A stretch of DNA of 64,000 nt from Octopus vulgaris. Lineage: Eukaryota. This document shows, in pieces, positions 54,659 through 55,240 of this stretch. Location: the NCBI GenBank assembly GCA_951406725.2, contig OX597816.1, positions 54,250,001 through 54,314,000 of the forward strand. The letters are read 5' to 3'. The notes under the pieces were generated by a model, which did not search any database, was not told where the DNA came from, and saw nothing but the letters and a program-made list of their open reading frames with translations. Both the position numbers and the translations under genes were made by a program. Position 1 is the first letter of the stretch. The number at the start of each line of letters is the position of its first letter.

Positions 54659-55240
54659 GTACGTTTAAATATTTGTTGTGCAAGATTTTTTATGTGAAGT
54701 CGTGTGTTGAAACAGATATTGTTTTATTTCGGAATGGTCATTTTGCCAGTTTAGCCAATAAAAACACACGCACTATATATTTGATGTTATTTTGCTTCAG
54801 TGTTATTTATTTTTTACATTAATCTTAATCTTATTTCGGCCAGAGTTCTTTCGTCACACTCCTGTGACCGCATCAGTGGTCCTTTGTTTTCTTCTTTCTT
54901 ATTTGTGTCTCTCCTTACTAACCGTCAGCCATTTTGTATTTCGGCAAGAGTTCTTTCGTCACACTCCTGTGACCGCATCAGTGGTCCTTTGTTTTCTTTT
55001 TTCTTATTTGTGTCTCTCCTTACTAACCGTCAGCCATTTTGTATTTCTATTGTAGAAATAAGAAAGAAGAAAACAAAGCACCACTGATGCGGTCACAGGG
55101 GTGTGACGAAAGAACTCTGGCCGAAATAAGATTAAGATTAATGTAAAAAATAAATAACACTGAAGCAAAATAACACCAAATATATAGTGCGTGTGTTTTT
55201 ATTGGCTAAACTGGCAAAATGACCATTCCGAAATATAACA
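54659..55240. mobile_element. Non-coding fold-back element between (TA)n tracts: 2 x 105-bp tandem units plus an inverted arm, with three hammerhead-like motifs
   Basis: Arms 54720-54904 and 55056-55240; tandem units start at 54832 and 54937; turn-around hairpin TATTTCTA-TTG-TAGAAATA at 55042-55060. Confidence 0.88.
55081..55120 (+). ncRNA. Hammerhead-like motif with CUGAUGC core (also on the minus strand at ~54840-54879 and ~54945-54984)
   Basis: CCA-CUGAUGC-G-GUCACA(GGGG)UGUGAC-GAAA-G(AA)C-UC-UGG. Confidence 0.65.

What the first reader, a model, noticed from the sequence alone, without database searches (positions are those of the whole stretch)
54659..55240. Non-coding triple-hammerhead palindrome with an atypical CUGAUGC core
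Seen: two 105-bp tandem units, each with a hammerhead-like fold on the minus strand, then an 8-bp perfect hairpin (55042-55060) and an inverted ~185-bp arm with a third copy; TA tracts lie at both ends. All three copies have C in place of the normally conserved A9 plus an extra G, a 6-bp stem II and a CUC triplet. Inference: a retrozyme-like or PLE-terminal RNA whose tandem ribozymes could release a 105-nt monomer or circle. It is a second, independent case of fold-back integration at (TA)n and possibly a new natural core variant.
Basis: partly seen in the sequence, partly recalled or inferred. Interest (0 to 1): 0.78.

Follow-up and report, generated by a model that had tools for sequence, protein, structure and literature searches.

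The report
Penelope-type repeat with variant hammerhead core
A short, common jumping-gene remnant that is folded back on itself carries three copies of a hammerhead (self-cutting RNA) motif with one unusual core letter; most related copies share that letter, so it is a family trait, but it likely weakens cutting rather than making a new circular RNA.

Summary
In detail: two 105-bp units, a hairpin junction, 185-bp inverted arms, (TA)n at both ends, and three hammerhead-like motifs with a CUGAUGC core. The element belongs to a high-copy dispersed repeat (1,201, 3,359 and 8,624 contigs laid in three runs; a fourth run gave none). C9 is not private decay: it carries 87%, 86% and 70% of summed contig depth, canonical A9 13%, 14% and 30%, while a private letter of this copy carries under 1%. 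The inverted copy, one-sided tail, (TA)n target, extra base before stem II and long stem II are all described traits of Penelope-like elements. Release of a 105-nt circle from this locus is not supported: read-through RNA is predicted to form a long duplex, helix III is not palindromic, two of three copies have private stem I lesions, and the unit lacks the tail. Best reading: a non-coding Penelope-type terminal repeat whose majority subfamily fixed A9C, likely a weakened ribozyme spread because cutting is not needed for insertion. Cleavage is untested, the parent element was not found, and the paper most likely to list such variants was not readable.

The parts
54584..54658 (.). (TA)n tract, left part of the likely target
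54659..54719 (-). 61-nt extension present on one arm only; 66% A+C on the minus strand; like the PLE 'tail' between two RT start sites (inferred)
   Evidence: other copies end at 54716 into TA and at 54670-54679 (table 7); PMC11167929
54720..54904 (-). left arm of the inverted repeat (3' body plus hammerhead 1)
54832..54936 (-). 105-bp unit 1
54838..54882 (-). hammerhead-like motif 1, type I minimal, C9 at 54870, intact stems I and II; predicted cut 54843|54842
54937..55041 (-). 105-bp unit 2
54943..54987 (-). hammerhead-like motif 2, C9 at 54975, private stem I mismatch at 54946
   Evidence: no such letter at 3% or more in the family
55042..55060 (.). fold-back junction: 6 nt of a third unit (55042-55047), 8-nt filler, start of right arm; forms an 8-bp hairpin; left arm stops 5 nt short of where an upstream motif would cut (inferred)
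55056..55240 (+). inverted, 5'-truncated copy (right arm)
55078..55122 (+). hammerhead-like motif 3, C9 at 55090, private changes in stem I (55079) and loop II (55100)
55240..55387 (.). (TA)n tract, right part of the likely target

Best explanation
This is one young copy of a high-copy, non-coding repeat that was likely derived from the terminal repeat (pLTR) of a Penelope-like element (PLE) and likely inserted into a (TA)n tract by a PLE protein, and its CUGAUGC core is the majority form of the family and likely a weakened or dead hammerhead. Shown: anatomy, repeat nature, C9 majority with an A9 minority, recurring ends, other fold-back copies. Inferred: the minus strand is the RNA; reverse transcription started at two nearby sites in an AC-rich 3' tail (giving arms that end at 54659 and at the 54720 equivalent); the two cDNAs, or one cDNA that snapped back, were joined through a 5-nt microhomology with filler; A9 is ancestral and C9 derived; loss of the A9-G12 sheared pair lowers cleavage; the C9 subfamily spread because uncut RNA is the substrate for insertion and a cut at motif 1 would separate the RT start sites from everything upstream. 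Two C9 motifs were in fact copied through uncut in this insertion.
For: Repeat family: 1,201 (X8), 3,359 (X6), 8,624 (X3) contigs laid on 54660-54941; 20 of 24 listed runs, 4 organism labels, 11 studies hold the stretch. Position 9: A share of summed depth 0.131, 0.145, 0.298, so C 0.87, 0.86, 0.70; control: at the private site 54784 the window's letter gets under 1% in all three runs. Recurring end at 54716 into TA in 3 of 3 runs, ends at 54670-54679, truncation points at 54741-54744, depth highest in the 3' part, and 5 opposite-strand joints in other copies. Inverted 5'-truncated copy, 30-40 bp one-sided tail and (TA)n bias are standard PLE traits (PMC8557442 passages); tail equals the stretch between two RT starts, and dead hammerheads do not affect insertion in vitro (PMC11167929); extra base between 9 and 10.1, long helix II and opposite-strand pairs are described for PLE minimal hammerheads (PMC4209133). 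A RT/GIY-YIG PLE with the same palindrome-plus-tail layout in (TA)n lies 2 kb away. A9 pairs with the general base G12 in the crystal structure (PMC11300833); 56 of 56 representative PLE hammerheads have A9.
Against: No parent ORF was linked to this family: no homology to the neighbouring PLE, and none of 3 PLE proteins retrieved begins or ends with a frame of the element. No measurement of A9C activity was found in text; 'weakened' is inference. The 56 published motifs were found with a descriptor that demands A9, so their uniformity is partly circular. The left arm ends 5 nt from a predicted upstream cut site and 4 of 5 opposite-strand joints have one side at 54940-54941, which fits cleavage defining the 5' end, although that is also the edge of the laid stretch. 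No non-CpG family variant falls in 35 constrained motif positions against 12 in 232 flank positions (not significant, p=0.18). Summed contig depth is not a copy number, and raw-read run X24 gave 0 reads (no test).
Confidence: 0.58

Rival explanations
1. C9 plus the extra G is a working natural core variant (for example C9 bulged out and the extra G taking its place, or rescue by the PLE protein), tuned to cut slowly, so that an upstream copy sets the RNA 5' end while downstream copies survive until reverse transcription.
For: C9 is the majority letter in 3 of 3 runs; stems and the rest of the core show no non-CpG family variant (0 of 35); left arm stops 5 nt short of the equivalent cut site; 4 of 5 opposite-strand joints touch 54940-54941; monomer fold is the predicted dominant one, stem pairs p 0.80-0.87; core variants with residual activity and a protein-assisted PLE hammerhead are on record.
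Against: Conservation not significant (p=0.18); joints lie at the edge of the laid stretch; helix III loop AA is not self-complementary (duplex +0.7 kcal/mol against -3.1 to -9.7 for three palindromic controls); C9 lowers predicted stem probabilities against A9 (0.80-0.87 against 0.91-0.99) and opens a C9-G12 pair (p 0.065); A9 copies coexist and could account for any cut ends.
Confidence: 0.22
2. A retrozyme-like unit: tandem ribozymes release a 105-nt linear or circular RNA, and the tandem here was copied from such a circle.
For: Two exact periods plus 6 nt of a third with the same junction; non-LTR retrozymes are tandem type I hammerhead repeats related to PLE pLTRs; circular templates were proposed for PLEs.
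Against: Read-through RNA of this locus is predicted to be a long duplex (about -333 kcal/mol) with motifs 1 and 3 fully paired and stem II of motif 2 at p 0.02; even without the inverted arm stem II p is 0.02 and 0.17; the 105-mer is below the 150-450 bp range reported and only 42% paired as a circle; it lacks the tail where copies end; no back-joint of 105 nt was listed in any of 3 runs (the joint list may be filtered); unit 2 has a broken stem I.
Confidence: 0.1
3. The tandem and the palindrome are private accidents of this one insertion or an assembly artefact; only the single unit is the family.
For: Some laid contigs stop matching at 54939-54940 and run on for 27-53 nt without a listed return into the unit (table 8); no back-joint listed.
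Against: Arms and units differ at 4 and 2 sites and the arms end at different family-typical places, which an assembly echo would not give; other copies also fold back. This rival concerns the tandem only and is compatible with the best explanation.
Confidence: 0.1

Closest known systems
Minimal type I hammerheads in pLTRs of metazoan Penelope-like elements (Cervera and De la Pena 2014, PMC4209133)
   Same: Type I layout, one extra base between 9 and 10.1, G10.1-C11.1, long (6-bp) helix II, short helix I, vestigial helix III, dispersed high-copy families, pairs on opposite strands.
   Different: C at position 9 (A in 56 of 56 listed); extra base is G (1 of 56 listed, consensus H); helix III insert is not palindromic.
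EN+ PLE insertions (Neptune, Penelope/Poseidon, Naiad) with inverted truncated copy and tail (Craig et al. 2021, PMC8557442; Frangieh et al. 2024, PMC11167929)
   Same: Partial tandem, inverted 5'-truncated copy, extension at one end, (TA)n site, AC-rich end.
   Different: No ORF; tail here 61 nt (37-46 nt by the recurring ends of other copies) against 30-40 bp; parent element not identified.
Non-LTR retrozymes (Cervera and De la Pena 2020, PMC7229834; Li et al. 2026 preprint 10.64898/2026.07.22.740005)
   Same: Non-coding tandem units each with a type I hammerhead, GC under 45% (0.44), likely PLE-dependent.
   Different: 105-nt period, minimal rather than canonical motif, non-consensus core, unit poorly self-paired, unique 3' body outside the repeat, no circular RNA shown.

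Membership tests
Hammerhead ribozyme (type I, minimal) | Core CUGANGA and GAAA | tested here: not met
   C at position 9 in 3 of 3 local copies and 70-87% of family depth; A9 minority meets it
Hammerhead ribozyme (type I, minimal) | Stem II closed by G10.1-C11.1, stem I, NUH triplet | tested here: met
   Met in copy 1; stem I broken or shortened in copies 2 and 3
Hammerhead ribozyme (type I, minimal) | Helix III able to form, in a monomer or through a palindromic insert in a dimer | tested here: inconclusive
   A-U and G-C pairs possible around an AA insert; inter-copy duplex +0.7 kcal/mol against -3.1 to -9.7 for palindromic controls
Hammerhead ribozyme (type I, minimal) | Self-cleavage after H17 | not testable with these tools
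   needs an in vitro assay
Hammerhead ribozyme (type I, minimal) | Covariation in stems across the family | tested here: inconclusive
   no stem variant at 3% or more except one CpG transition; 0 of 35 against 12 of 232, p=0.18
Penelope-like element insertion (non-autonomous derivative) | Tandem/inverted arrangement with 5'-truncated inverted copy | tested here: met
   5 opposite-strand joints in other copies
Penelope-like element insertion (non-autonomous derivative) | One-sided tail, two recurring 3' ends | tested here: met
   61-nt extension; loose ends at 54716 and 54670-54679 in 3 of 3 runs
Penelope-like element insertion (non-autonomous derivative) | AT-rich or microsatellite target | tested here: met
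   (TA)n both sides; TA-rich loose ends at 54716
Penelope-like element insertion (non-autonomous derivative) | Homology to the pLTR of an RT + GIY-YIG element | tested here: inconclusive
   no match to the neighbouring PLE; no genome held; 0 hits in three contig collections
Non-LTR retrozyme | [quoted passage not shown] | tested here: not met
   both units have C9 and unit 2 has a broken stem I
Non-LTR retrozyme | 150-450 bp monomer, highly self-paired | tested here: not met
   105 nt, 42% paired, -8.8 kcal/mol as a circle; ranges
Non-LTR retrozyme | Expressed as linear and circular monomer RNA | not testable with these tools
   only assembled contigs were available, which cannot show RNA ends or circles

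The most novel reading that the evidence does not exclude
A high-copy PLE-type family has fixed an A9C change in the hammerhead core and still cleaves, slowly or with protein help, with the extra G compensating; the attenuated ribozyme lets an upstream copy set the RNA 5' end while downstream copies stay intact for reverse transcription. It would be a natural position-9 variant invisible to standard CUGANGA descriptors, with its A9 sister subfamily as a built-in control for what PLE hammerheads do.
Probability: 0.22. Interest if true: 0.65.

Novelty: new variant of a known kind. Interest (0 to 1): 0.36.

Why it matters
The role of hammerheads in Penelope-like elements is open: they were proposed to process precursor RNA, yet dead mutants insert normally in vitro and some clades lack them. 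A family in which a C9 form outnumbers the canonical A9 form offers a natural pair for that question: if C9 is dead, ribozyme loss did not hinder, or helped, spread; if it cleaves, the natural core is wider than current descriptors allow. The locus architecture itself is ordinary.

Tried and rejected
No whole genome is held, so copies could not be aligned or counted directly. Rfam: no hammerhead match in the window or in 54780-54945; the miRNA-like hits are the fold-back. No tRNA in 54000-57500, so no tRNA-derived head. Pattern scans of metagenome (2), genome (1) and viral (1) contigs: 0 hits each. No RNA holder listed; run X8 is only guessed to be RNA and is used as sequence, not as expression evidence. 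Raw-read run X24 laid 0 reads: no test, unexplained. Only 4 of 24 listed runs could be laid, on a non-redundant part (54660-54941), so sequence upstream of the unit in other copies was not seen. Parent-ORF search through the neighbour's nuclease gave 3 PLE proteins among 202 candidates, none linked to this family. No second copy of the family elsewhere in the window. Earlier-finding look-ups by sequence, place and the C9 motif were empty. Private decay of A9 was rejected. CpG decay as the source of the A/C difference was rejected: the change is a transversion; the CpG transitions next to it are at most 4%. Literature: no text value for A9C activity found; Lunse et al. 2017 on PLE hammerhead variants was not held.

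Full report
Setting. The window is microsatellite-rich animal DNA with LINE, SINE and Penelope-like fragments. From the SINE consensus I recall an octopus-type genome; that label is recalled and comes from no call. No whole genome is held.

Observation. The anatomy is as described. Two 105-bp units (54832-54936, 54937-55041; 98%) are followed by 6 nt of a third. Arms 54720-54904 and 55056-55240 are 98% complementary over 185 nt. (AT)n tracts lie at 54584-54658 and 55240-55387. The CUGAUGC core occurs three times, each followed by one G, a 6-bp stem, GAAA, a 4-nt insert and UC. A strict descriptor matches 2 places in the window and 0 in 200 simulated windows. The three motifs are copies of one sequence. 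Units differ at 2 sites and arms at 4; none of these six letters except the right-arm letters at 54724 and 54784 equivalents is common in the family, so the copy carries about six private changes in some 570 nt and is young. Two of them hit stem I (54946, 55079), leaving only motif 1 with intact stems. Rfam finds no hammerhead here.

Family test. The stretch is held by 20 of 24 listed runs, from 11 studies and 4 organism labels. I laid 4 of the 24 on the non-redundant part 54660-54941 at 80% likeness. Three contig sets gave 1,201, 3,359 and 8,624 laid contigs; the raw-read run gave 0, which the tool marks as no test. At 54870 (position 9) the canonical A carries 0.131, 0.145 and 0.298 of summed depth (41, 64 and 103 contigs, counted up to 128), so C carries 0.87, 0.86 and 0.70. 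As a control for bias towards the reference, the window's private letter at 54784 gets under 1% in all three runs. Summed contig depth is not a copy number and more distant A9 relatives may fall below 80%, but private decay is excluded: C9 is the majority form among near relatives, and A9 coexists. Other sites vary at 10-45%, so there are several subfamilies; linkage could not be read. No non-CpG variant falls in 35 constrained motif positions against 12 in 232 flank positions; this leans towards conservation but is not significant (p=0.18).

PLE signature. Other copies end at 54716 into TA (3 of 3 runs) and at 54670-54679, are truncated at 54741-54744, and depth is highest in the part away from the units; five opposite-strand joints show other fold-back copies. 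Our copy has a 61-nt AC-rich extension on one arm only. An inverted 5'-truncated copy, a 30-40 bp one-sided tail and (TA)n bias are standard for PLEs (PMC8557442, passages). The tail is the stretch between two RT start sites in an AC-rich region, dead hammerhead mutants insert normally in vitro, and that hammerhead needed protein to cut (PMC11167929, parts 1-2 of 4). An extra base between 9 and 10.1, a long helix II and opposite-strand pairs are described for PLE minimal hammerheads (PMC4209133, parts 1-2 of 4); in its supplementary alignment (parts 1-2 of 3) 56 of 56 motifs have A9 and 1 of 56 has an extra G, but the descriptor demanded the core. Tandem minimal hammerheads in PLEs are mentioned for axolotl (PMC7229834, passages). 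A coding PLE palindrome with the same layout lies at 57292-60254; its nuclease part has a weak GIY-YIG match (E 0.003) and its relatives carry RT and GIY-YIG. It shares no sequence with our element, so it is a parallel, not the proven parent.

Junction. Read on the minus strand, cuts would fall at 54843|54842 and 54948|54947, and for a missing upstream unit at 55053|55052. The left arm stops at 55047, 5 nt short of that; 8 filler bases follow, then the right arm. Five of the eight hairpin pairs are a microhomology between the motif's 3' flank and the linker at 54900-54904. This fits end-joining of two cDNAs or a snap-back with a template jump (inference). Four of five opposite-strand joints in other copies have one side at 54940-54941, near the same point, but that is also the edge of the laid stretch, and two pairs of joints may be the same loci in two runs, so this only hints that cleavage sets the 5' end. 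Against efficient cutting: two C9 motifs were copied through uncut.

The 105-nt circle. A read-through RNA of the element is predicted to be a duplex of about -333 kcal/mol with motifs 1 and 3 fully paired and stem II of motif 2 at p 0.02. Without the inverted arm stem II probabilities are 0.02 and 0.17. The helix III insert is not self-complementary (+0.7 kcal/mol against -3.1 to -9.7 for three palindromic controls), whereas PLE motifs are described as palindromic there and dimer-dependent. The cut-to-cut 105-mer is 42% paired as a circle, shorter than the 150-450 bp repeats of retrozymes, and lacks the tail where copies end. No 105-nt back-joint was listed in the three runs, and some contigs leave the match at 54939-54940 for 27-53 nt, so the tandem may be rare; the joint table appears filtered, so this is weak.

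Does C9 cut? A9 forms a sheared pair with the general base G12 (PMC11300833, passages). In isolation motif 1 still folds as a hammerhead (stem pairs p 0.80-0.87 against 0.91-0.99 with A9) with a small C9-G12 pairing (p 0.065). Natural core variants with low activity exist, and the text on them names none at position 9 (PMC3088659, passages and section 8; its figure was not visible). Searches: 'hammerhead' + 'A9C' 0 papers, 7 listed, none on this by title and abstract; 'octopus' + 'Penelope' + 'hammerhead' 4 of 5 listed, none on this family. PMC9901934 (passages, supplement search) and PMC11014351 (passages) gave no position-9 value; the retrozyme preprint was seen as part 1 of 5 plus passages (its supplements are closed); PMC6765202 as passages. 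Lunse et al. 2017, the likeliest place for such a variant, was not held, so novelty of the variant is not established beyond these searches.

Mechanism, committed. A non-coding pLTR derivative is transcribed from the minus-strand sense, bound by a PLE protein at its 3' tail, reverse transcribed from two start sites at a nicked (TA)n tract, and joined head to head. A subfamily with A9C, likely weak or dead as a ribozyme, became the majority because uncut RNA is what gets inserted (0.58). Rivals: functional attenuated variant (0.22), retrozyme-like 105-nt circle (0.10), tandem private to this locus (0.10, compatible with the first). Earlier AI notes on other genomes reached similar 'ordinary PLE' verdicts for tandem minimal hammerheads; they are leads only and none concerns position 9.

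Verdict. Works like a PLE-terminal minimal hammerhead repeat; fails the consensus test at position 9, so it is filed as a variant, not a shown ribozyme, and it fails two retrozyme criteria. New variant of a known kind, interest 0.36.

Noticed in passing
window 57292-60254: 5'-truncated coding PLE (RT thumb, CxxC-type linker, GIY-YIG) as a 1.4-kb-arm palindrome in (TA)n with a 32-nt AC-rich tail on one end; both arms share the same in-frame stop; a 139-nt end fragment of it lies at 18399-18537.
   Followed up: partly
window 60054 (+) and 57463 (-): The neighbouring PLE carries a hammerhead-like motif of the U3-A8 type with a 2-bp stem II and a palindromic 4-nt helix III insert; the variant type is described in PMC4209133.
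   Followed up: partly
window 57076-57105 (+): A canonical-core minimal hammerhead motif (4-bp stem II) in a TA-flanked segment 56926-57214, a third PLE-type family.
   Followed up: no
window 54873-54814 (-): The AUG inside the core (positions 6-8) opens a 19-codon frame in which the A9/C9 difference is silent (both Arg); a PLE ORF starting inside the hammerhead is described in PMC11167929. No matching protein start among 3 retrieved.
   Followed up: partly
window 55731-56200 and 56506-56911: Two diverged (87%) copies of another repeat beside TA tracts, with a frame at 56624-57004 (-) that looks like a PLE N-terminal piece.
   Followed up: no
run X24: A raw DNA run with the same species label as the best holder laid 0 of 12.9 million reads on a repeat that is abundant in three other runs; unexplained (label, filter or different organism).
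   Followed up: no
window 298-3422 (+): Long two-frame LINE-type endonuclease/RT ORF, apparently recent.
   Followed up: no
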